A DNA stretch of 64,000 bases from Octopus vulgaris (Eukaryota), in NCBI GenBank assembly GCA_951406725.2, contig OX597825.1, positions 14,446,001 through 14,510,000 on the forward strand, read 5' to 3'. Positions 27,899 through 56,556 of the stretch are shown in pieces. The notes below the pieces were generated by a model. It saw only the letters and a program-made list of their open reading frames with translations, was not told the origin of the DNA and did no database searches. Every line of letters starts with the position of its first letter. Positions within the stretch are counted from its first letter, which is position 1. The translations under genes and the position numbers were made by a program.

Positions 27899-28094
27899 CT
27901 ATATATAATATATATATATATATATATGTATGTATATATGTATAGTAGAATGACAAAATGACAAAAATGTTCTTGGTACTATATATTATATTTGAAAAAA
28001 TGAGTAGAGATGATGGCTTTTGGGTGGGACAATTCTTATTTTAATGATAATGTTTACAGTTGCTGTAATGAGTTTCGAGCTACATCAGGTGAGG

Positions 28095-28600
28095 GGCTAT
28101 GGACAGTTATCTCGAGAACCAAATGGACAGTCGGATCCTGAGGGAACCGAATTGTATTGACAGCCCAGAGTGGCCTTCGCACGTGGCTGCTCTGGTGCTG
28201 GAAAGAAGACATTGCAATATGATAATTGACTCGTGTAAAAACGAGAATTTCAGAATTCTACATTGGAGTCCCAGAATTCGGTTGCAGTAATGCTTGAAAG
28301 TTGCACGTGATTTGCTGGGGGAAAGAATTGTAGAGTTTTATTGCCTCTTATTTCTGAATAAACTAATTTTGGTTGTATGGACATTTTAGTCCAAAGAAAT
28401 TGTATTTTTGAATAGTAAGAGGGTCATTACCTCGGTGTATGTATTTTTAATAATGTTTTAGAGAAGCAGAGGATTGGCGGGCGCCTTCTGCGTTCTCCCA
28501 TCTTTATCATTTTTCATCATAATCATCCGTCTCATTAATGTTTATGTCCAGCCTGCAAGCTACTCTTTGTAATGTCTTTATGGCAAATCTTTATGAAGTA
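28095..28600 (+). mobile_element. 5'-truncated SINE-A-targeting retroelement, copy 1
   Basis: ORF 28099-28290 (..CIDSPEWPSHVAALV..SCKNENFRIL); 3' end GTCCAGCCTGCAAGCTAC..TTTATGGCAAA..TGAAGTA joined to AAGTAGCTTGCTTACC. Confidence 0.75.
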
Positions 28601-28616
28601 AAGTAGCTTGCTTACC

Positions 28617-30228
28617 TTACTCGACAGAAGAGTTCGCATTTGCATGCTACTTGGATATCACGTCTTTCAACGTGCAATATTGAACGTTTAAAGCTCGACT
28701 ACAGGTAGGCGTTTGTTTTATTTTTGGGGGCCCTAGTGGAATTTTTGTTGTTCTGTTATTAATAATTTTTGTTGAGCAACAGTATCCAATCTGCTCCAGA
28801 CATTTCCCTGCCTGTGGTCGTGCGAAAAATCTCACTTTGCACTGAGAATTGTGTTTTTGAGGAGGCGTATCCCCTCCGTGAAAAATTGCTGGCTGTGAAA
28901 ATTGCCTTTACCATTTGAGGATTTCCAGTTTGGAACTAGTTTGGATTAAGAAAAAACTTCGGCGTCAAGGTAAGTGGGTTTTTTGCTGCTGAGCTGGGTA
29001 GAATTCTTGTGTGTTTTATTTTTATTACAGTATATTCTGTCAAACTCTGGGGCAATTTCACTTATCCTTGGCGATGTTGTGATTGTGCTTTTTAACAAGG
29101 AGGTGAAGAACTTCAATGTGAATATTTTCACTACAGTTATTTAGAAAAAAAAAAATTGGTGCTTGCAAACTGTGCGTGGTCTTGAACCTGGAAACGTTGG
29201 AAGTACATTACCAGAAGGATTATTAAGAGATTTGAAGGCTGTAAGTGTGCTGGGAGTACCGTGTAGCTCGAAAATTTTATTTTCTGCCGTGGAGAATTGT
29301 ACAAATTTATTTATTTTTCTGAACAATTTTAGTTGGAATAGAATTTTTTTTTCTGAACAATTTTAGTTGAACTTTTTATTTTTTGTGTGTTCAAAGACTT
29401 TTTGTTGTTTTTTGTTGAGTGACTTTTTTCCTTGTTTGAACTGTGTTTTATCGACATGGCAGATAAAATGATAAAAAATAAGACCACTGCTTTGGAGTGG
29501 GAGATTGTCCCACCCAAGCAGTGGTTAAAAGATATGGAGGAGAGGACGGTGATGGTTAGAAGAAAAAAGAGGAAGAAGAAAAACGGGAGACGGTCAGTAG
29601 ATGTCGCTGTGCCGCCGGCCGAAACCGATGTTTCTCCGGCTGGAAGTGTGCCACCGGAGCAAGAAGCTCTGTCAGTGGGAATTGTGCCACTGACGGAGCA
29701 GGATGTGACCTCTCTCTGTGAGGAACGTTGTCATTATTTATCTCAAAGGAGGGCCTGTGGAGTTATACTTGGACAGTCTACTAAACCGAAACGATATAAC
29801 TCGACCTGTATAGACTGTCCAAGTTGGCCTCCGCAGGTGGTTGCGGAAGTCATAAATCAGAAAGTACTAATTGAGGTCAGGAAGACCTGTAACAAAGAAG
29901 ATTTTGTTTCCCTCTGTCCGGGCCTGCCGATGCATCTTCCCTGCTGGCGGCAGAAAACTTCCTTGGGGGCCCCGATGAGGAAGACGAAGAATAATGAAAA
30001 AAATATTTTTGTATTTTGTAATTTTAATTTTTGAATGTTTTGTGATTATAATTTCGATTTATATTGATTTAAATTGAACAGTGATTTCGAGGGGTTATCG
30101 GACGGCGGGCGCCGGTGCCCCTCCCATTTTTTTTTTCCATCTTTATCGTTCTCATACACATTGATGTCTCGTCCAACCCGCAGCTACCTTTATCTGTGTG
30201 CGACCTTCATGGTCAATTCGATGAAATA
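28617..30228 (+). mobile_element. 1.6-kb SINE-A-targeting RT-less retroelement, copy 2, with 16-bp TSD
   Basis: Flanked by AAGTAGCTTGCTTACC (28601-28616) and AAGTACCTTCCTTACC (30229-30244); long 5' UTR, one ORF, T-rich 3' UTR ending TGAAATA. Confidence 0.85.
29456..30034 (+). CDS. 192-aa ORF of the element (ORF1/HAL1-like, function unknown)
   Basis: ATG at 29456; basic cluster RRKKRKKK, P/E-rich linker, C-terminal CIDCPSWPPQVVAEV..TCNKEDFVSL homologous to the 28099 ORF; no RT or EN motifs. Confidence 0.6.
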   Translation: MADKMIKNKTTALEWEIVPPKQWLKDMEERTVMVRRKKRKKKNGRRSVDVAVPPAETDVSPAGSVPPEQEALSVGIVPLTEQDVTSLCEERCHYLSQRRACGVILGQSTKPKRYNSTCIDCPSWPPQVVAEVINQKVLIEVRKTCNKEDFVSLCPGLPMHLPCWRQKTSLGAPMRKTKNNEKNIFVFCNFNF

Positions 30229-30607
30229 AAGTACCTTCCTTACCAACCACATAGTTCCGGGTCGAGTCCCATTGCGTGGCACCTTGGGCAAGTGTCTTCT
30301 ACTATGGCCTCCTCATGCCGACCAAAGCCCTGTGAGTGGATTTGGTAGACGGAAACTGAAAGAAGCCCGTCGTATATATATGTATAAGTGTATATATGTG
30401 TGTGTTTGTATTTGTCCTCCCAACATCGCTTGACAACCGATGCTGGTGTGTTTACGTCCACATAACTTAGCGGTTCGGCAAAATATACCGATAGAATAAG
30501 TACTAGGCATCTAAAGATTAAGTCCTGGGGTCGATTTGCTCCACTAAAGGCGGTGCTCCAGCATGGCCGCAGCCAAATGACTGTAACAGGTAAAAGAGTA
30601 AAAGAGT
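30229..30607 (+). mobile_element. SINE-A lacking its A box (target of the upstream insertions)
   Basis: Starts at AAGTACCTTCCTTACCAACCAC; full body and GTAAAAGAG tail. Confidence 0.9.
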
Positions 30608-31743
30608 ATACGTACATAAGATAGTACAAAAAAAGGGTGCATACTCATATCATGTGAATGTAAGTGCCATCACCAAAAAAGGATTAGAACTGAACCTTTG
30701 ACTGGAGCTGAACCACGTGATTGCAAATCTAGCTTCCTAACGACGCATGAGAAAAAGCCTTTGCCTGGCAAATACACAGGAATCCGAAAACTTTGGTCAC
30801 GAATGTTAATAGATTAATATGAATCTGATGCCGATGTCCAGATCTGGATTGACTTCGGAAATCCTTGGTAAAAATTTCACCTATGTAGATTATTTTTATT
30901 GGAATTTCGGTGTAGAAGTCCTATGCCTGGAAACCATTTCCCTTGAGCTTATAAACACTAAACTGCTTTAAATATAACGGTGAATTCTCGTACATGGAAG
31001 TTGGTTTAGCCTTGAAAACCCTAAAATACAGCTTGTATGTTGCCTACGAATGTCTGAAACAGAATTTATGCTTGTATTCGGTGTCTTCTTGAAGAGTAGT
31101 ATGTGTAATATTATCGCATTTGGTAATACTCATTTTTGACAGGCATATAAAATGTAAGGATAGGTTGCAGGAAACGCGTTTCGTGATTATAATGCCAATA
31201 ATCATGGCACGAAGTAGAGATTAGTATTAATATATGATGATCCAAAGAGAAGGGGAACATGATAGTTGTAATTTACTTGATAATTAATATAATATTTCAT
31301 TAAGGTAATTAAACAGAGATTCCAGTAATAGATCCGATAATGTCGAAACTAATTTGCTTTCATACACAAACACAAACACCATCTCACAGATTCACTCACG
31401 TGCTACACACACACATATAAAATGTGTATGCATAGAAATGTATGTATGTATGTACACCAAATCCAACGTTTACCACCTATGTATGTTATGTGGTATGTAT
31501 ATCAACTAAGGTATGCACCAGAAATTAAAGCCAAAAGTAAGCTTAGCTTCATGCAAGAATATTACTAAATCATTTTCAGGGCTGTAATATATATATGTAT
31601 GCATGAATGGATGGATGTGTGTATGTTCTTGCGTGTGCTTACACATAAGCAGACACACACTCATATGCATATATAAGTAAGCGCATAACTGCAAAACAAG
31701 CTAGAAAAAAATTGCCCTTGAGATGAGGTATAGTAGAATGCGA

Positions 31744-31929: not shown

Positions 31930-32560
31930 CTTATTGGTTTTTTTTTTCAATTTTCAGCTCAGAGCTATAGTGATGCTGGGGCACAACCGTTTTGCTATAC
32001 TGTTATGATTGGGAACCTCCTCTCATATGAGGCATTTGGTAAATAAGGGAGTTTGATGTCGTTGAACTCATTTGCGACTCCTGCCACAAGGTAGGTTCAT
32101 AACGGACTCTCGACAGGTAGAGATCCAAGTTGGATTTGAAAATATCTACATCTACTTCATGTGGGTCCCTCAGGCTCTTTGGGAGAATATTAAACATCTG
32201 TGGGCCCCCGAAATCCAGGCTGTTGTAGCAACTGTTCCTGAAGTGGGATGGCATTGCTGGGATCTTTGGTTCTATGCAGTGGTGACACGTTCTGGCATTT
32301 GTATAGCTTTCAATGACAAAATTTGGCACAATCACTTCCAGGATCTTCCAGATGTATATTACTGCATATCTTTCCCGCCTTCGGTCCACGGAACAGAGTC
32401 TTAGCTGCTTTAGCATTTCCCAGTAGATGAGCCGTTGCAATGAGACGGGCTTTTTTGTGAGGCTTCACTGAATTGCTTCCAGGTCCGCTGTTAATTTTTT
32501 CACTGTGAGGAAACCATAGCTAGGAGCAGTACAGCTGGTGGCTGAGGAGGAATGACCGGT
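31930..32560 (-). mobile_element. CR1-clade LINE 3' fragment (ORF2 C-terminus and 3' UTR)
   Basis: YCS*LWFP..DLEAIQ..YWEMLKQLRLCSVDRRRERYAVIYIWKILE..GPQMFNILPKSLR..FKSNLDLYL. Confidence 0.9.
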
Positions 32561-39214: not shown

Positions 39215-39770
39215 GGCGGTAAGCTGGCAGAAACGTAAGCACGCCGGGCGAAATGCGTTGCCGTATTTCGTCTGCCGTTACGATCTGAGTTCAAACTCCG
39301 CTGAGGTCGCCTTTGTCTGTCATCCTTTCGGGGTCGATAAATTAAGTACCAGTTACGCACTGGGGTCGATATAATCGACTTAATCCGTTTGTCTGTCCTT
39401 GTTTGTCCCTTCTATGTTTAGCCCCCTGTGTATAGTAAAGAAATAGGTATTTCGTCAGCCGTTACGATCTGAGTTCAAACTCCGCTGAGGTCGCCTTTGT
39501 CTGTCATCCTTTCGGGGTCGATAAATTAAGTACCAGTTACGCACTGGGGTCGATATAATCGACTTAATCCATTTGTCTGTCCGTGTTTGTCTTCTCTGTG
39601 TTTAGCACTTTGTGGGCAGTAAAGAAATGGGCAAGATGGCAGTCGTTAACACGCCGGGTGAAATGCGTAACGGCATCTCTTCTGTTTGTATATCCTGAGT
39701 TCAAATTCTACCTAGGTCGACTTTGCCTTTCATCCACTCGAAGTCGATAAAATCAGTACCACTTGAACAC
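39215..39770 (+). mobile_element. SINE-B tandem dimer plus a third partial unit
   Basis: Units joined at GAAATAG|GTATTTCGTC (39446/39447); both units share private variants. Confidence 0.9.
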
Positions 39771-44139: not shown

Positions 44140-44426
44140 CCAAATCGACTCTGGATTTATTCTATCGGTATGTTACTTATTCTATCGGTCTGTTACTTAT
44201 TCTATCGGTCTGTTTTGCCAAACCTCTAAATTACAGGGACGAAAACATACCAACACAGACACACAAACACACATATATGTAAATACGACGGGATTCTTTC
44301 GGTTTCCATCAACCAAATCCACTCACAAGGTTTTGGTCAGATCGAGGCTGTAGTAGAAGACACTTGCCCAAGGTGCCACGCAGTGGAACTGAACCCGCAA
44401 CCATGTGGTTAAGAAGCAAGCTACTT
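44140..44426 (-). mobile_element. SINE-A lacking its A box (second targeted locus)
   Basis: Minus starts AAGTAGCTTGCTTCTTAACCACATGG; internal ~20-bp unit TACTTATTCTATCGGTCTGT triplicated. Confidence 0.88.
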
Positions 44427-44620
44427 TATTTCAAAATTTTGCCATAAAGGCATGGCACAGAATAGCTTGCAGGCTGGACAAAAACATTGAAGAGATGAAT
44501 GACGAAAAGGATGATAATGATGGGAGAAGACAAAAAACGCCGACTTTTTTGCTTCTCTAAAACATAATTTTTTTTTACATAATAAAAACAATACATAATA
44601 AAATACATAATAAAAACAAT
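44427..44620 (-). mobile_element. 3' fragment of the SINE-A-targeting retroelement, copy 3
   Basis: TTCTCCCATCATTATCATCC..GTCCAGCCTGCAAGCTATTC..TTTATGGCAAAATTTTGAAATA joined to AAGTAGCTTGC; matches 28490-28600. Confidence 0.85.
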
Positions 44621-44792
44621 AGGCGCAGGAGTGGCTGTGTGGTAAGTAATTTGCTTACAAACCACATGGTTCCGGGTTCAGTCCCACTGCGTTGCACCTT
44701 GGGCAGGTGTCTTCTACTATAGCCTTGGGCCAACCAAACCCTTTTGAATGGATTTGGTAGACGGAAACTGAAAGAAGCCCGTCGTATATATG

Positions 44793-44823
<31 letters not shown>

Positions 44824-45043
44824 ATATGTTTGTGTGTCTGCGTTTGTCCCCCCCCCCAAATCGCTTGACAAACGATGCTTGTGTGTTTGCGTCCCCGTCA
44901 CATAGCGGTTCGGCAAAAGAGACCGATAGAATATGTACTGGGCTTACAAAGAATAAGTCCCGGGGTCGAGTTGCTCGACTAAAGGCGGTGCTCCAGCATG
45001 GCCGAAGTTAAATGACTGAAACAAGTAAAAGAGTAAAAGAGTA
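44621..45043 (+). mobile_element. SINE-A full length
   Basis: AGGCGCAGGAGTGGCTGTGTGG to (GTAAAAGA)n. Confidence 0.92.
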
Positions 45044-45989
45044 ATACGATGTATTAAACCTCTTAATTAGTTCCGTTGTTCATTCTCAGTTGAGGCTCTG
45101 AGCCTCTTACAAACAATAAACACAAAACAACAAAAGAGACTGAGGCATTAAACCTCTTACTTTAATGTGATATACAATACGAAGCACTAAGCCACTTAAT
45201 TTTTCCGCCCCGCCGTCACCCGACCAGGCTGAATGGCACAGTCAAGTACCTCGATTGTGCTAGGTCGGGACCTTTCGGCAAAAAGCGAAATGTGTCCTCA
45301 GGGAAGAACTTTATTACCTCAAACTTTTTTTCCCTACATGACCTCTACACCTACCTGCGGAGGCCAATCAGGGTTCTTGATACAGGTACTTATTCCTTCC
45401 TTTTTTATTAAACTTTATAATCATTTTTTAGATTTCCCTTCCCCTGTGGCACAGGACTACAAATTCCTCCTCCACATAGGAAGAGTCCTCAAAACCCCAC
45501 ACCGGTGGCACAATCCCCACTTACCATACAAACACTCCTGTGCCTATATATATACCGCATTATTTTATTCAAGTATTCTACCGTTGGATGCTGACTTTGG
45601 CTCAGTCTATCGCCATCTCTCTCTTCTTCTAAATGCTAATGCATCCATTAGTGTTATAAAACTTATAATGGTTACAACGACTGATATTCATGGTGATGGA
45701 TATCAAGATCTAAAGTCACAGCGGCGTACAGTATCCTGATATAATTTTCTCTGATACAATACTGATATGCCGCGTACGTTATCGGTCTAATATCACATTA
45801 GTTCATTATAATCGCTTCTTGTATCACCTACGCCAAGTATTTTAGTTCGCTGAATCACTGTCAACATTTATTTTGTAAAAGTTTAATAGACAAACATTCG
45901 AATAACGGAATTGAGTGATCCTTCAGTTCAATATTAAATGCCTTTTATGTATTAGTTAACATCAAAACAAGCATTACTACACACACACT

Positions 45990-46374
45990 GTGGAGGCACA
46001 ATGGCCCAGTGGTTAGGGCAGCGGACTCGCGGTCGTAGGATCGCAGTTTCGATTCCCAGACCGGGCGTTGTGAGTGTTTATTGAGCGAAAACACTTAAAA
46101 GCTCCATGAGGCTCCGGCAGGGGATGGTGGTGATCCCTGCTGTACTCTTTCACCACAACATTCTCTCATTCTTACTTCCTGTTTCTGTTGTACCTGTATT
46201 TCAAAGGGCCGGCCTTGTCACTCTCTGTGTCACGCTGAATATCCCCGAGAACTACGTTAAGGGTACACGTGTCTGTGGAGTGCTCAGCCACTTACACGTT
46301 AATTTCACGAGCAGGCTGTTCCGTTGATCGGATCAACTGGAACTCTCATCGTCGTAACCGACGGAGTGCTTCCA
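45990..46374 (+). mobile_element. SINE family C (tRNA head), young copy
   Basis: TGGCCCAGTGG A box, TTTCGATTCC B box; flanked by ACTACACACACAC repeats. Confidence 0.92.
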
Positions 46375-47297: not shown

Positions 47298-47682
47298 TGG
47301 AAGCACTCCGTCGGTTACGACGACGAGGGTTCCGGCTGATCCCATCAACGGAACAGCCTGCTCGTGAAATTTTACGTGTAAGTGGCTGAGCACTCCACAG
47401 ACACGTGTACCCTTAACGTAGTTCTCGGGGATATTCAGCGTGACACAGAGAGTGACATGGTCGGCCCTTTGAAATACAGGTACGACAGAAACAGGAAGTA
47501 AGAGTGAGAGAAAGTTGTGGTGAAAGAGTACAGCAGGGATCACCACCATCCCTGCCGGAGCCTCGTGGAGCTTTTAGGTGTTTTCGCTCAATAAACACTC
47601 ACAACGCCCGGTCTGGGATTCGAAACCGCGATCCTACGACCGCGAGTCCGCTGCCCTAACCACTGGGCCATTGTGCCTCCAC
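47298..47682 (-). mobile_element. SINE-C with 13-bp TSD
   Basis: TSD TTTGTCTACAACT at 47284 and 47683. Confidence 0.93.
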
Positions 47683-48034
47683 TTTGTCTACAACTACTGA
47701 CCGCTTCGCTCAACAACATAATTTCTTTTAATGAGGATAGAGATTATTGTGAAATTAAAAGTGTAGAAGGTTTAAACGTCTCCTTGGAAGACTCTTCATC
47801 TGATATAGGAGAATTTTCTTTAATTATCTCCTCTTCTATGGTTTTGAATGCATTTACCTGTTTCCGATGTTGCCATGGCAGAGCTGATAGCTATTTTTAG
47901 TGAGTGTGTTATACGATTCATGTGGAGTGTCTCCAAAATCTAATAGCCTAGGAAAAACTGTCAACATCCATTTTGTCGATACATCTCATGCTGCTGTTTG
48001 CTGTCTCCTTTTCGCTATAAATTATATCTGATCA

Positions 48035-48404
48035 GTGGAGGCGCAATGGCCCAGTGGTTAGGGCAGCGGACTCGCGGTTTCCATTCCCAGACCGGGCGTT
48101 GTGAGTGTTTATTGAGCGAAAACACCTAAAGCTCCACGAGGCTCCGGTAGGGGATGGTGGTGATCCCTGCTGTACTATTTCACCACAACTTTCTCTCACT
48201 CTTACTTCCTGTTTCTGTTGTACCTGTATTTCAAAGGGCCGGCCTTGTCACTCTCTGTGTCACGCTGAATATCCCCGACAACTACGTTAAGGGTACACGT
48301 GTCTGTGGAGTGCTCAGCCACTTACACGTTAATTTCACGAGCAGGCTGTTCCGTTGATTCGGATCAACCGGAACCCTCATCGTCGTAACCGACGGAGTAC
48401 CTCC
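48035..48404 (+). mobile_element. SINE-C with 11-bp TSD
   Basis: TSD ATATCTGATCA at 48024 and 48405; small deletion in the head. Confidence 0.93.
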
Positions 48405-49039
48405 ATATCTGATCATTTTACCAGCAACAGTACGTTCCTTTCATACATTCATTTGCAGAACAGGTACTCTTCAGATAATATGCTATTACTCCCCAAGTGT
48501 GAGTCGTGAAAATTGTAAGGCATGGATATAAGGCGTCTGGTAGGTTATTTACTTGCAAATTACATGACTACAACTCTGAACAGGTTTTGTAATTTGGGAA
48601 CTTAATGATATTTCTTTTCAGTTACAGTGAAGCAGCATTGATTCTAATTTACTTAATAGTTCATTAGATATTACTCCTCTATACAGCAATTTATCGGTCA
48701 GACTCTCCGACCAGATGTTGGGAAACTTCTCAGTCCCGTTTGCTAGCAATTCCTTATCTGTGTATGTGATCTCAGACGGTTAATATGGACTCTATGGAGC
48801 TACTTATATGTTTTTTCTCTTCCTTTCTGATCCAAGTCCCTTTTTTTAATAATACTGAAGGATATTCCCTCATATATTCCCCCACATTACCTCTAATGTT
48901 TCTATTCATGGTGTGCGTACTTCAGTGTCATGCATTTGTAACTTATTCTGTTACGAACACGGCTGTTTTTAAACATGATTTCACGTTTTACAAAGTCAAT
49001 ATTTTTTTCCTTTTTGGTTTTGATTTCACAGTGAACGTA

Positions 49040-50005
49040 CCGGCCGCCTCGGACACTCGGGATTTCGTCTGCCGTTACGTTCTGAGTTCAAATTCCTCCG
49101 AGGTTGACTTTGCCTTTCATCTTTTCTAGGTCCATTAAATAAGTACCAGTTACGCACTGGGGAAGATGTAATCGACTTCATCCCTTTGTCTGTCTTTATT
49201 TGTCCCCTCTATGTTTATCCCCCCCTCCCTGTGGACAATAAAGAAATATAAAATCTTCTACTCTGCTGATTTGCCATCATATTATCCCATCCTTCCAGTT
49301 TGTCGATTTCTCGTTATCATTTTGTTCAAGTGGTTCCAATACGTCCTCCAATAATTCGATCTTCTCACTTCGACCATCATTCCACGTCTTCAATTTAATT
49401 TTCTCTCAAACCATCACTTCACCTTTTACTGTCATATCTTAACACTGTCTCTGTTTCCCTATTTTCCTGCACTTGAATTAACATGAGCTTCAACGTGGTC
49501 TCTACTAGACTTTCTATTTCCTGTGTAATTTCTTCTAATTCTAACTTCCATGGTTAACCGTCTTGATATACAGAATGTGTCTGGCCAGGAAGTATACGTT
49601 GTGTTATTGGAAATGTGTCTATCACTTTCTAAATTGCGAAGATTCTTCGCCAGTTCATTCTTTTAATTGGTTAACTCCTAAAGAAGAACCTCATAAATAG
49701 ATTCTTTGGTTACTTTGTTCCTGGTAGTTTTAACTCGTTTCTCTTATCTTTCTACTTCAATTCAATTCGGTGAGCTGGCAGAATCGTTATCACGCCGGGC
49801 GACATGCTTAGCGGCATCGCGTCTGCCGTTACGTTCTGAGTTCAAATTCCCCCGAGGTCGACATTGCCTTTCATCTTTTTTGCTCATTTTTGCTAGCTGA
49901 GTGGACTGGAGCAACGTAAAAATGAAGTGTTTTGCTCAGGAATCGAAACCGCAACCTTACGATTATGAGTTCAACGCCCTAATCCCTAAGCCACTTGCCT
50001 CCACG
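49040..50005. mobile_element. SINE-B copies (49040-49250 and 49768-49880, plus) and a SINE-D fragment (49880-50005, minus)
   Basis: Family-diagnostic motifs. Confidence 0.75.
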
Positions 50006-51150: not shown

Positions 51151-52186
51151 GTTATTGCTTTTCATATTCCTTGCATTGACAACTTGTGTTTTCCGAAGCT
51201 ACAATATTTTGGGTGTTATTACATTTTTGATAAATGGAAATTGTTTAATTTTCGAATTGTTTAACAAGGAAGCCCTAATTCCCCGTACCGGGGGAAAGTT
51301 TTAGGTTCTATTTTCTCGAGATGTGCAATATAGTTTGATGCAGCCAAGTACGTGCCAAAATGGCGTCTACAAATACAATAACACACGACCAGAAAATCGA
51401 GCGGAAGTTGCCCAAAGTAATAATGAACAGCCTGCGTTTTACAAAGAGAAAAAATAAACAAAATGGATTCTATTAAATGCAGAAACTTGTACGGCATAAC
51501 ATATAAAAACAAACGATAATTTTTGAAAAATAAAATCAATATTCCCTTGAACATTTTTAACTTCAAAACAAAATATCTTAGCTGTAAACACAACAACAGC
51601 AACAAAAAAAAAAACACTCGCAAACACAAACAAAAATAGCAACAACATCATTCACACAAAAATGTGTTTTAACGTTGCTGACGTCACTGAAGATGATTGA
51701 TGTTTTTCTATCATTTTCCATCTTTTTCAGCATATTTGTCATCTATCTTATTTGGTTAAGTTATGAGATTCCTTTACAAATATATCTGAAGGTGTGCTCC
51801 TTTCCTGTAACTATTGCAGACACTGCATATATTTATTTCCTTCAGTCCGTTGTGTTGTTGAAAGTAAGTCTGTGATGGAGAAGTGAGGCGTCGTAATCGT
51901 TTCGAGTTTATAGTCGTGTTCTATCCTTAGTAGTCTCTTTGCTTGATCCAGATGAAGATTTTATAGTCTGTATTTTCCCTTGTAACTTAGCGGAATTGAC
52001 ACATTCTTCTCTACGCTTATATCATTTGAGTTGTGTTGGAGAAGCTTGAAAAGTAGCTTGAAAAGTAATGTCCGACACTTTATTTCCGGACATATCAATT
52101 ACGTCTGGAAATAAGAACTGCTATTTTGTTGTTGATGTTGTTGTTGCTGTTGTTGTTGCCAATTTGTTGTGCTTGTTATCTTTATC

Positions 52187-53091
52187 GAGTAAAAGAGCAG
52201 CTCAAGCCATCAAATTGACACTGGGGTTCAAATATATGAAGCCCAACATACCCACCATTACTACCAGTCTGAGAAGGGTACACCAGGCTAATGCATCTCT
52301 AACATATATGCGCAACATGGCGATGTTATATCAAGATAAACAGCATGTGACCTTGCAGTAGGGACCCAGCTAAAAATGTTATCAGGTCAAAATGTCTCTG
52401 AATGCGGATTGATGAAGAATATTGAATGAAACACCCATGCTTCGAGAGGAGAATTATCAAACACCCCAAAATTCCTCTCAATACATGGCTATGATGCTCC
52501 CCACTACTGCTCGTGATGAGACATGCACATATTGTCAGCTACCAAGGGACATGCTCGACTGGTTAACGTCAATGTTCTTATTATTATTGAGTGATAGAGC
52601 AGCACACGCCATCAAAGTGACACTGGGGTAAAATATATGAAGCCTGATATACCCATCATGACTACTAGTGCGCGACATGTTATCTCATATCAATATAAAC
52701 AATGCATAACATTGCAGGTTGGGCCCAGTTAAAAATTTTATCAGGTCAAAATGTCTCTGAATGCGGATTGATGAATAATGTTGAATGAAACACCCATGCT
52801 TCGAGAGGAGAATTATCAAACACCCCAAAGAATTCCTCTCAACACATGGCTATGATGCTCCCCCACTACCTACTTCTGCTCGTGATCAGAGATGCACATA
52901 TCGTCAGCCACTAATGGATATGCTCAAATGGTTACGGTCAAACAACTGACAAGCAAATCTGTGGTATTGAGCAGAATATTTGCTGTAGCCCATCTTTTAT
53001 ACCAAGACAAACCAATGTACATGATAACACTTCCAATCAGTTAAGATCAGAAACCACGAGAGCCACTGCCTGGTACTGCATCAGGGCATTT
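52187..53091 (-). mobile_element. Two tandem copies of the (TAA)n-associated 560-bp element
   Basis: 52187-52572 truncated, 52589-53091 near full length; followed by (ATT)n to 53293. Confidence 0.85.
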
Positions 53092-53114
53092 ATTATTATT
53101 AGTAGTAGTATTAC

Positions 53115-53204
<90 letters not shown>

Positions 53205-55442: not shown

Positions 55443-55847
55443 GACGGCGAGCTGGCAGAATCGTTAGCAAAATGCTTAGCGGTATTTCGTCTGCCGCTAC
55501 GTTCTGGGTTCAAATTCCGCCGAGGTCGACTTTGCATTTCATCCCTTCGGGGTCGATTAAATAAGTAGCAGTTACGCACTGGGGTCGATATAATCGACTT
55601 AATCCGTCTGTTTGTCCTTGTTTGTCTTCTCTATGTTTAGCCCCTTGTGGGTAGTAAAGAGATAGGTATTTCGTCTATCTTTACGTTGTGAGTTCAAATT
55701 CTGCCGAGGTCGACTTTGCCTTTCATCCTTTCGGGGTCGATTAAATAAGTACCAGTTACGCACTGGGGACGATATAATCGACTTAATCCGTTTGTTTGTT
55801 CTTGTTTGTCCTCTCTATGTTTAGCCCCTTGTGGGTAGTAAAGAAAT
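55443..55847 (+). mobile_element. SINE-B dimer with 12-bp TSD
   Basis: Junction GAGATAG|GTATTTCGTC at 55665; TSD AG(G/T)TATTTGAAA at 55431 and 55848. Confidence 0.9.
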
Positions 55848-56556
55848 AGTTATTTGAAATGATTGGATGGTCATACGAGAATGGATTCGATAGTAAGTGA
55901 CCTCCATCACAAACGACCATGGGCTAAACAAAAAGAATGATTTTAGCAGCTGCTGTAGTATTCTCTAAAGTAGCCATCTTTATAGATGTCTGGAAGATTA
56001 TTAGCATTTACTTCAGCAGCCTTGATATAATACAAATGTATCGTTAAAATACATAATACCCATAGACAAAACGGAGAAAGAGTCAAGAAAATTATATCGA
56101 ACTTCTGATATGGAAATAAATCTCTGATTCCTCCGTGGAAAGTATATCTGAGGAATTAGAAATAAATACCAATTTTATTTTCAATTCCTTCCAATTAGTT
56201 ATTAATCCACGCATCATTGCTCTATTAGTAGAACGAACTGGAATCATCTCGTGTTACACTCCCGGAATAATAGGTTTCTGAATGCATGATATTCATTTAT
56301 TCATTAGAAGATGAAAGAAAAGATTAGAACGTACCTAATGTGAATTGGATGGGTGTTAAAAAAGTTCTGCATTATCTTCTTCATTGCTTTCGTTAATACT
56401 TAGTCTTGGGAGGCACAGTTCTGCGAGACACACAGAAAAGAATACTATGCTTTAGACTAATTTAAGAGAGCTGCTCGGAGACTTACATTGTTTTCCGATA
56501 TGTCCATCATCAATTAATGTTCTTGATCCGAGTGGCGAATTAGGGCCTGACATCTA

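What the first reader, a model, noticed from the sequence alone, without database searches (positions are those of the whole stretch)
28099..29950. Conserved unknown CIDxPxWPxxVxAxV domain at the ORF C-terminus of two diverged element copies
Seen: PNCIDSPEWPSHVAALVLERRHCNMIIDSCKNENFRIL (28099 ORF) aligns without gaps to STCIDCPSWPPQVVAEVINQKVLIEVRKTCNKEDFVSL (29456 ORF), keeping CID, P, WP, V, A, V, C, E, F and L although the DNA is strongly diverged. Both lie just upstream of the 3' UTR. Inference: purifying selection acted on this protein, and the ORF2-less layout is old and stable rather than a one-off deletion.
Basis: partly seen in the sequence, partly recalled or inferred. Interest (0 to 1): 0.72.

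Follow-up and report, generated by a model that had tools for sequence, protein, structure and literature searches.

The report
Protein-coding retroelement that targets a SINE
A 1.6-kb jumping element with one small gene of unknown kind and no reverse transcriptase inserts at one exact base inside a very common short repeat of this animal genome, which points to an undescribed parasite-of-a-parasite with a conserved orphan protein.

Summary
The peptide match is real: 13 of 38 residues, ungapped, 60 of 114 bases. A third diverged copy lies at 45518-44426 (minus). The 28099 'ORF' is only an internal Met of a 5'-truncated, broken copy, and the 29456 ORF probably carries frameshifts, so the conserved domain is longer than reported. 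Third codon positions diverge most and dN/dS is about 0.3-0.45, so purifying selection is supported. Copy B (28617-30229) lies between 15-bp target duplications, A is stacked in tandem before it, and C splits one SINE in two. The three tails share two hairpins with compensatory changes. Contigs from 4 of 4 runs (four organism labels) cover the element as a multicopy family with the same short ORF-to-tail spacing; no ORF2 was seen. No homologue or confident fold was found for the protein. Best reading: a non-autonomous, protein-coding, target-specific non-LTR retroelement moved by an unidentified partner LINE, probably Tx1-like. The partner and the protein's job are inferred, not shown.

The parts
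28082..28601 (+). Copy A: 5'-truncated element (C-terminal coding part and 3' tail), in tandem before copy B
   Evidence: Upstream of 28082 another repeat continues with different letters in runs X1 and X8 (loose end behind 28081); 3' end joins the target 15-mer
28081..28326 (+).
   Evidence: the part around the first stop aligns with B's shifted frame (7 of 2000 shuffles as good)
28153..28185 (+). Core motif in A (CIDSPEWPSHV; most relatives have Q for H)
28461..28585 (+). 3'-tail structure of A: long hairpin 28461-28497 and terminal 4-bp hairpin 28573-28585
28602..28616 (+). 15-bp target sequence from the SINE head, sandwiched between A and B; 5' target-site duplication of B
   Evidence: Matches the empty SINE heads; 13 of 15 identical to 30230-30244
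28617..30229 (+). Copy B: longest copy seen, 1613 bp, probably full length
   Evidence: Flanked by the duplication; a diverged contig in X8 (record 24) spans the same target/5' junction, 28601-28858
28617..29455 (+). 839-nt T-rich 5' leader with a block shared by many relatives at about 28760-28878; only three tiny uORFs
   Evidence: Depth bins and loose ends at 28878; composition and uORFs
29456..30034 (+). Single ORF of B (192 aa as written): conserved N-terminal block (LEWEIVPPKQW...ERTV), basic run, low-complexity linker, C-terminal domain; probable frameshifts near 29726, 29791 and 29935, so the family stop is probably 29992-29994 (about 180 aa, acidic end)
29807..29839 (+). Core motif in B (CIDCPSWPPQV), residues 118-128
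30089..30214 (+). 3'-tail structure of B: long hairpin 30089-30123 and terminal hairpin 30202-30214, followed by an A-rich end at 30229
30230..30612 (+). Host SINE from the insertion point onward (first 15 bp are the 3' duplication)
   Evidence: 326 of 365 identical to an empty copy from its position 31 on
44426..45518 (-). Copy C: diverged, 5'-truncated, decayed copy (motif at 45384-45352), itself interrupted by a later SINE at 44599-45043
45519..45549 (-). 5' half of the SINE head split by copy C (3 bases shared with the element start)
   Evidence: 27 of 31 identical to positions 3-33 of an empty SINE
44175..44425 (-). 3' part of the SINE split by copy C
   Evidence: 203 of 232 identical to an empty copy from position 31 on

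Best explanation
A family of non-autonomous, protein-coding non-LTR retroelements of about 1.6 kb: leader, one ORF of about 180 codons, structured 3' tail, no reverse transcriptase or endonuclease. Shown: the anatomy, the multicopy family, selection on the protein, paired tail hairpins, one fixed 3' junction inside a SINE head, a 15-bp duplication, variable 5' ends and tandem stacking. Inferred: the RNA is recognised through its tail by the RT/endonuclease of an autonomous, sequence-specific partner LINE (most likely Tx1 clade; Dong/R4 second). The partner nicks the SINE head at the 3' edge of its A-box-like motif and copies the RNA in by target-primed reverse transcription. The duplication recreates the target, so later copies stack. 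The abundant SINE is a safe harbour, and insertion separates its A-box-like and B-box-like motifs, probably silencing that SINE copy. The protein most likely works in cis as an RNA-binding/RNP-packaging factor, the job ORF1p does (my odds about 45%). A targeting adaptor (about 12%) or an anti-silencing factor (about 10%) are next; no homologue or fold supports any of these.
For: 3 of 3 copies join the SINE head at the same base; 2 of 7 SINE heads in the window are occupied; a random end would hit such a base with chance about 5e-5. Duplication 13 of 15. C lies between two halves of one SINE. Other 5' ends next to the target appear in contigs (joints 30246->29014 and 28615->28808, one contig per run). 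Tail: 9 of 19 pairs change on both sides, 96% of cells pair, 0 of 500 shuffles as high, slid controls 45-57%. Family: 29-30 of 30 bins covered in 4 of 4 runs; X13 records 18 and 19 bridge motif to tail with unchanged spacing (115 vs 117 and 82 vs 83 letters); a joint links B's N-terminal coding part to an A-type tail in X1 and X8. Selection. No RT motif in six frames of the window. Precedent for a 16-bp duplication, tandem stacking and Tx1 mobilisation into another transposon: SINEU-3 (PMC4494074, passages). O. vulgaris has 13 recently active L1-Tx1 and 5 Dong-R4 families (PMC13282606).
Against: The partner was not found; no tail-sharing autonomous element is in the window. Only three copies were read directly, and contigs are short, from different loci, and only the best rows are shown; 29374-29557 is not bridged in the listed records. 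A's 5' flank is another repeat, not the SINE head. C has only a 3-bp overlap instead of a 15-bp duplication. The hairpin model was derived from the same three sequences it was counted on, and no single tail folds better than its shuffles (z 0.29, -0.79, -1.62). The frameshift calls rest on few contigs (1 of 4, 2 of 4 and 3 of 4 runs), and the downstream extension of the A-B alignment is not significant by shuffling (p=0.36). The A-type tail is about 5 times deeper than the A-type motif, which could mean the tail is shared with another element.
Confidence: 0.65

Rival explanations
1. The copies are truncated or deleted pieces of a longer autonomous, SINE-targeting LINE, in which this ORF is ORF1 (with ORF2 after it in intact copies) or a small last ORF behind the RT. 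The 1.6-kb form would then be debris or a strict half-LINE.
For: 5' truncation is common here (A, C, joints). The first 40 nt of B are thinly covered (depth 137 at 28656 against about 9000-13000 at 28784-28789). Target specificity needs an endonuclease that must be encoded somewhere. Half-L1 elements arose repeatedly by deletion (PMC5753468, passage).
Against: Three strongly diverged copies and bridging contigs all have only 420-515 nt from motif to 3' end. A second diverged record shares B's 5' junction. The leader is 839 nt, T-rich and non-coding. The protein has no similarity to any ORF1p family in Pfam and no CCHC knuckle.
Confidence: 0.2
2. The conserved block is kept for RNA or DNA structure, not protein; the element is a long non-coding retroposon and the ORF is incidental.
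For: B has a strong hairpin over the motif (z=-4.6) and A a different one (z=-2.3). All three copies are broken in the coding region, and no protein homologue exists in the collections searched.
Against: The hairpins of A and B pair different bases. Third positions diverge most in all three pairs. Diverged relatives keep frame and conservative residues at the N-terminus. Two majority variants are silent in the shifted frames and not in B's written frame.
Confidence: 0.07
3. Retrocopies of a fast-evolving host gene (with spliced leader) that a site-specific LINE mobilised repeatedly.
For: Orphan ORF with a long leader holding splice-like motifs (28706, 28783, 28970, 29031; read by eye).
Against: The supposed introns are still present in DNA copies and no listed joint removes them (7 joints not shown). 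The tails are structured and conserved like stringent LINE tails, and there are many diverged subfamilies.
Confidence: 0.05
4. A non-autonomous Dada-like DNA transposon, since Dada targets the A box of tRNA genes.
For: Target lies at an A-box-like motif; Dada targets cluster at the A box (PMC8869645, passages). B's ends match weakly as an inverted repeat (10 of 20).
Against: Dada makes 6-7 bp duplications and encodes a DDE transposase (PMC3706591). Here the duplication is 15 bp, 5' ends vary while the 3' end is fixed and A-rich, and the tail is paired as single-stranded RNA.
Confidence: 0.03

Closest known systems
HAL1 (half-L1) non-autonomous elements (PMC5753468, passage seen)
   Same: Non-autonomous retroelement family with one retained ORF and no ORF2
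   Different: HAL1 encodes a recognisable L1 ORF1p; this protein is about 180 aa with no detected homologue. Target specificity for a SINE is not mentioned for HAL1 in the passage seen.
SINEU-3 / Tx1-Mar of crocodilians, and Tx1L of Xenopus (PMC4494074, passages seen)
   Same: Non-autonomous retroposon placed in another transposon by a target-specific Tx1 partner; 16-bp expected duplication; tandem copies sandwiching one duplication
   Different: SINEU-3 has an snRNA-derived head and no ORF is reported in the passages seen; its target is a Mariner DNA transposon. Here the element codes for a protein and the target is a tRNA-like SINE head. The partner here is not identified.
Dada DNA transposons (PMC3706591 part 1 of 4; PMC8869645 passages)
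   Same: Insertion at or near the A box of a tRNA-type sequence
   Different: DDE transposase, 6-7 bp duplications, 4.7-11 kb; no 5' truncation described in what I read
Drosophila HeT-A and Dictyostelium TRE5-A (recalled, from no call)
   Same: HeT-A is an RT-less, protein-coding, target-restricted retroelement; TRE5-A ORF1p is recalled to bind the Pol III factor TFIIIB to target tRNA genes
   Different: HeT-A Gag has zinc knuckles and targets chromosome ends; TRE5-A is autonomous and inserts upstream of, not inside, its target. No sequence similarity was shown.

Membership tests
Non-LTR retroposon (TPRT product) | Fixed A-rich 3' end, variable 5' ends | tested here: met
   3 of 3 copies share the 3' end; 5' ends at 28617, about 28082 and 45518, plus contig joints
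Non-LTR retroposon (TPRT product) | Target-site duplication | tested here: met
   B 13 of 15; C only 3 bp; A's 5' side is missing
Non-LTR retroposon (stringent type) | Conserved 3' stem-loop with compensatory changes (PMC3747384, passage) | tested here: met
   9 of 19 pairs, three sequences only, model derived from them
Autonomous LINE | RT and endonuclease ORF | tested here: not met
   No ORF other than the 192-aa one fits in 28617-30229; no [YF][AMV]DD motif in the window; Pfam blank
HAL1-type half-LINE | Single ORF, no ORF2, amplified as such | tested here: met
   Three copies and bridging contigs; not genome-wide
HAL1-type half-LINE | ORF homologous to the partner LINE's ORF1p | tested here: inconclusive
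   No hits in Pfam, PDB or the protein collections; low-confidence models; partner unknown
Tx1 clade dependence | Tail shared with a Tx1 element that has the same target | not testable with these tools
   No host genome held; no repeat library available
Tx1 clade dependence | Sequence-specific insertion into a repeat, about 15-bp duplication, tandem copies | tested here: met
   compared with SINEU-3. Not unique to Tx1.
LINE ORF1p with RRM / CCHC knuckle | CCHC zinc knuckle | tested here: not met
   Pattern absent in 6 of 6 forward frames of A and B
LINE ORF1p with RRM / CCHC knuckle | RRM fold | tested here: inconclusive
   Model of A's domain is helical but pLDDT 52.7 from a 4-row alignment; best Z 4.6, none at 5 or more of 48161 chains
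SINE | Small-RNA-derived Pol III head, no ORF | tested here: not met
   B has an ORF under selection; no Rfam match of note (1 row, E=0.45, outside the element), ARAGORN 0
Dada DNA transposon | 6-7 bp duplication and DDE transposase | tested here: not met
   15-bp duplication, no transposase
Penelope-like element | GIY-YIG domain, hammerhead-bearing pLTR | tested here: inconclusive
   No Pfam GIY-YIG or Rfam hammerhead match; divergent hammerheads can be missed

The most novel reading that the evidence does not exclude
The orphan protein is itself the targeting or licensing factor: an RT-less helper element, HeT-A-like in logic, whose product binds the SINE head, its RNA or the Pol III factors on it and steers a borrowed RT to the A-box edge. 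The family would then be an old hyperparasite that splits SINE promoters, possibly restraining the SINE expansion, with a new protein fold.
Probability: 0.12. Interest if true: 0.85.

Novelty: new variant of a known kind. Interest (0 to 1): 0.58.

Why it matters
Target-specific non-LTR elements are known for rRNA, snRNA, microsatellites and DNA transposons. A protein-coding, RT-less family aimed at one base in a SINE head did not turn up in ten literature searches. It may still sit unnamed in Repbase, Dfam or the Zenodo library of PMC13282606, which I could not see. If true it gives a defined target, a defined tail and an orphan conserved protein for testing what a non-autonomous element gains by keeping a gene. 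It also predicts an undescribed site-specific endonuclease in the partner, and bears on how SINE-rich cephalopod genomes (host identity inferred) are shaped by elements that parasitise each other.

Tried and rejected
Protein homologues: none. Pfam gave 1 row at E=0.088 for B and 1 at E=0.2 for A, both below cut-off. 0 of 119, 0 of 108 and 0 of 269 candidates in the 5.8-billion set. 0 at E<=0.001 among 1.84 billion representatives. No usable Atlas hit. PDB profile best E=0.5. These collections may hold few unannotated eukaryotic repeat proteins, so the blanks do not prove novelty. My own idea of an RRM fold was not borne out: both models are low confidence (pLDDT 52.7 and 38.7) and the fold search was flat. 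Extra loci: 0 in metagenomes by DNA and 0 in viral contigs. L001 (1 of 245 candidates) is an off-frame chance match inside a bacterial glycosyltransferase-like gene. L002 and L003 are bacterial chance pattern matches. Ribozymes: no Rfam match in the element. No RNA holder was listed among sequencing runs, which says nothing on expression. Laid depths are sums over contigs and were not used as copy numbers. Earlier findings: three look-ups returned nothing. The HAL1 paper was not held; PMC4678618 was irrelevant; PMC9115989 and PMC8967140 passages do not describe this element.

Full report
Setting. The window is microsatellite-rich, low-GC animal DNA crowded with SINE-like repeats. That it is an octopus is recalled from the look of these repeats and was not tested; no genome is held.

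The observation. The two peptides are there and match as described: 13 of 38 residues, no gaps, 60 of 114 bases; 0 of 2000 shuffles reach the score. tblastn also found a third copy, C, on the minus strand with STCIKNPDWPPQVGVEV at 45390-45340. A tail pattern built from the copies matches exactly three places in the window, with none in 100 shuffles.

All 3 of 3 copies end in an A-rich terminus followed by the same 15-mer, which belongs to the head of an abundant SINE. The window has 7 such heads: 5 empty, 2 occupied at the same base; a random end would land there with chance about 5e-5. B is bounded by this 15-mer on both sides (28602-28616 and 30230-30244, 13 of 15 identical), so B is 28617-30229. 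A ends at 28601, stacked before B with one duplication between them. C starts directly after the SINE's first 30 or so bases (27 of 31 identical) and ends directly before the rest (203 of 232), with 3 shared bases. The SINE head has A-box-like and B-box-like motifs by recalled consensus (ARAGORN calls no tRNA), and the cut lies just 3' of the A-box-like motif. Against neatness: A's 5' neighbour is another repeat, not the SINE head.

A family, not a one-off. Of 24 runs listed, 13 hold part of the stretch. I laid 4 of them, one per organism label. Each covers 29-30 of 30 bins, and most laid pieces are under 95% identical, so many diverged copies exist. Two X13 records bridge the A motif to the tail with the window's spacing, and overlapping records tile 29558-30243 and 28601-29373; 29374-29557 is not bridged in the 32 pieces shown (5874 not shown). 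One X8 record spans the target and B's first 240 bases with 26 differences and continues into other DNA, so B's 5' end recurs at another locus. Joints from the target to 28808 and to 29014 show shorter 5' ends and another tandem. The motif lies 449, 423 and 514 nt from the 3' end in A, B and C, although the tails are only 56-72% alike. No ORF2 fits, and the window has no RT motif.

The protein. A's ATG at 28099 is internal: its frame continues upstream through a TGA and aligns with a shifted frame of B (7 of 2000 shuffles as good). Contigs carry insertions relative to B near 29726 (1 of 4 runs), 29791 (2 of 4) and 29935 (3 of 4). Majority variants at 29747 and 29973 are silent in the shifted frames but not in B's written frame, and 29738 is silent in both. 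So the family protein is probably about 180 aa with an acidic end, and the conserved domain spans roughly its last 85-90 residues; the downstream extension is not significant by alignment alone (p=0.36). Selection: codon-position identity 20/23/13 of 36 (p=0.017), pooled with two hand-picked flanks 34/40/23 of 61 (p=0.003); dN/dS 0.36, 0.45, 0.29; neutral simulation 2.8%, or 0.8% without stops. Five loose-end rows from diverged relatives near the start stay in frame, for example MATKE before T10 and IENLERRTVV for LKDMEERTVM (by eye; frames), revealing a second conserved block at the N-terminus and no longer N-terminus where a start is visible. No homologue, knuckle or confident fold was found.

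The tail. The three tails share a long hairpin and a 4-bp terminal hairpin. 9 of 19 pairs change on both sides, 0 of 500 shuffles match this, and slid controls pair 45-57% against 96%. The model came from these three sequences, and single tails do not fold better than shuffles. Such stem-loops mark LINEs and SINEs whose RT recognises the tail (PMC3747384, passage).

Mechanism. Shown: fixed 3' junction, duplication, ragged 5' ends, tandem stacking, paired tail, selected ORF, no RT. Inferred: a partner LINE binds the tail, nicks the SINE head and copies the RNA in; the duplication renews the target. Tx1 is the likeliest partner, because Tx1 families target other transposons and SINEU-3 shows a 16-bp duplication with tandem copies (PMC4494074, passages), and O. 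vulgaris has 13 recently active L1-Tx1 families (PMC13282606, parts 1-2 of 3 and supplement search). The basic run and cis selection fit an RNA-packaging role for the protein; targeting or anti-silencing roles remain open.

Comparison and verdict. It works like HAL1 (one ORF, no ORF2; PMC5753468, passage) with the targeting of SINEU-3/Tx1-Mar, but membership in either is not established, and Dada is excluded by duplication length and lack of transposase. Ten searches found no description of it; repeat libraries and subscription papers could not be checked. Verdict: real, a new variant of non-autonomous target-specific retroposon with an orphan protein; interest 0.58.

Noticed in passing
window 29752-29837 (+): Strong inverted repeat inside B's ORF, with a perfect 13-bp core (z=-4.6); A folds a different hairpin over the motif (z=-2.3). 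Not conserved in register.
   Followed up: partly
window 28700-29035 (+): Splice-like donor and acceptor motifs in B's leader (about 28706/28783 and 28970/29031); no listed DNA joint removes them.
   Followed up: partly
window 27990-28081: End of a different multicopy repeat that continues with other letters in runs X1 and X8; copy A abuts it.
   Followed up: no
window 44599-45043: A later copy of the same SINE inserted into copy C's 3' region, so the SINE stayed active after C inserted (365 of 391 identical to an empty copy).
   Followed up: partly
window 45990-46374, 47298-47683, 48034-48405, 4771-4951: A second SINE-like family of about 385 bp, 91-96% identical; the copies at 47298-47683 and 48034-48405 face each other as an inverted pair.
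   Followed up: no
window 39263-39628 and 55481-55855: 184-bp unit in two tandem copies at two loci, related to dispersed repeats at 18810-19134, 20286-20523 and 49059-49248.
   Followed up: no
window 32003-32464 (-): 153-aa open frame (SLQRLIYWEMLKQLRLCSVDRRRERY...) that resembles, from recall, the C-terminal end of a CR1/L2-type LINE ORF2.
   Followed up: no
window 14548-15193 and 52173-53166: About 650-bp repeat, 81% identical, partly duplicated in tandem at the second locus.
   Followed up: no
window 29305-29428: Short tandem duplications (34 and 25 bp periods) in the T-rich end of B's leader.
   Followed up: no
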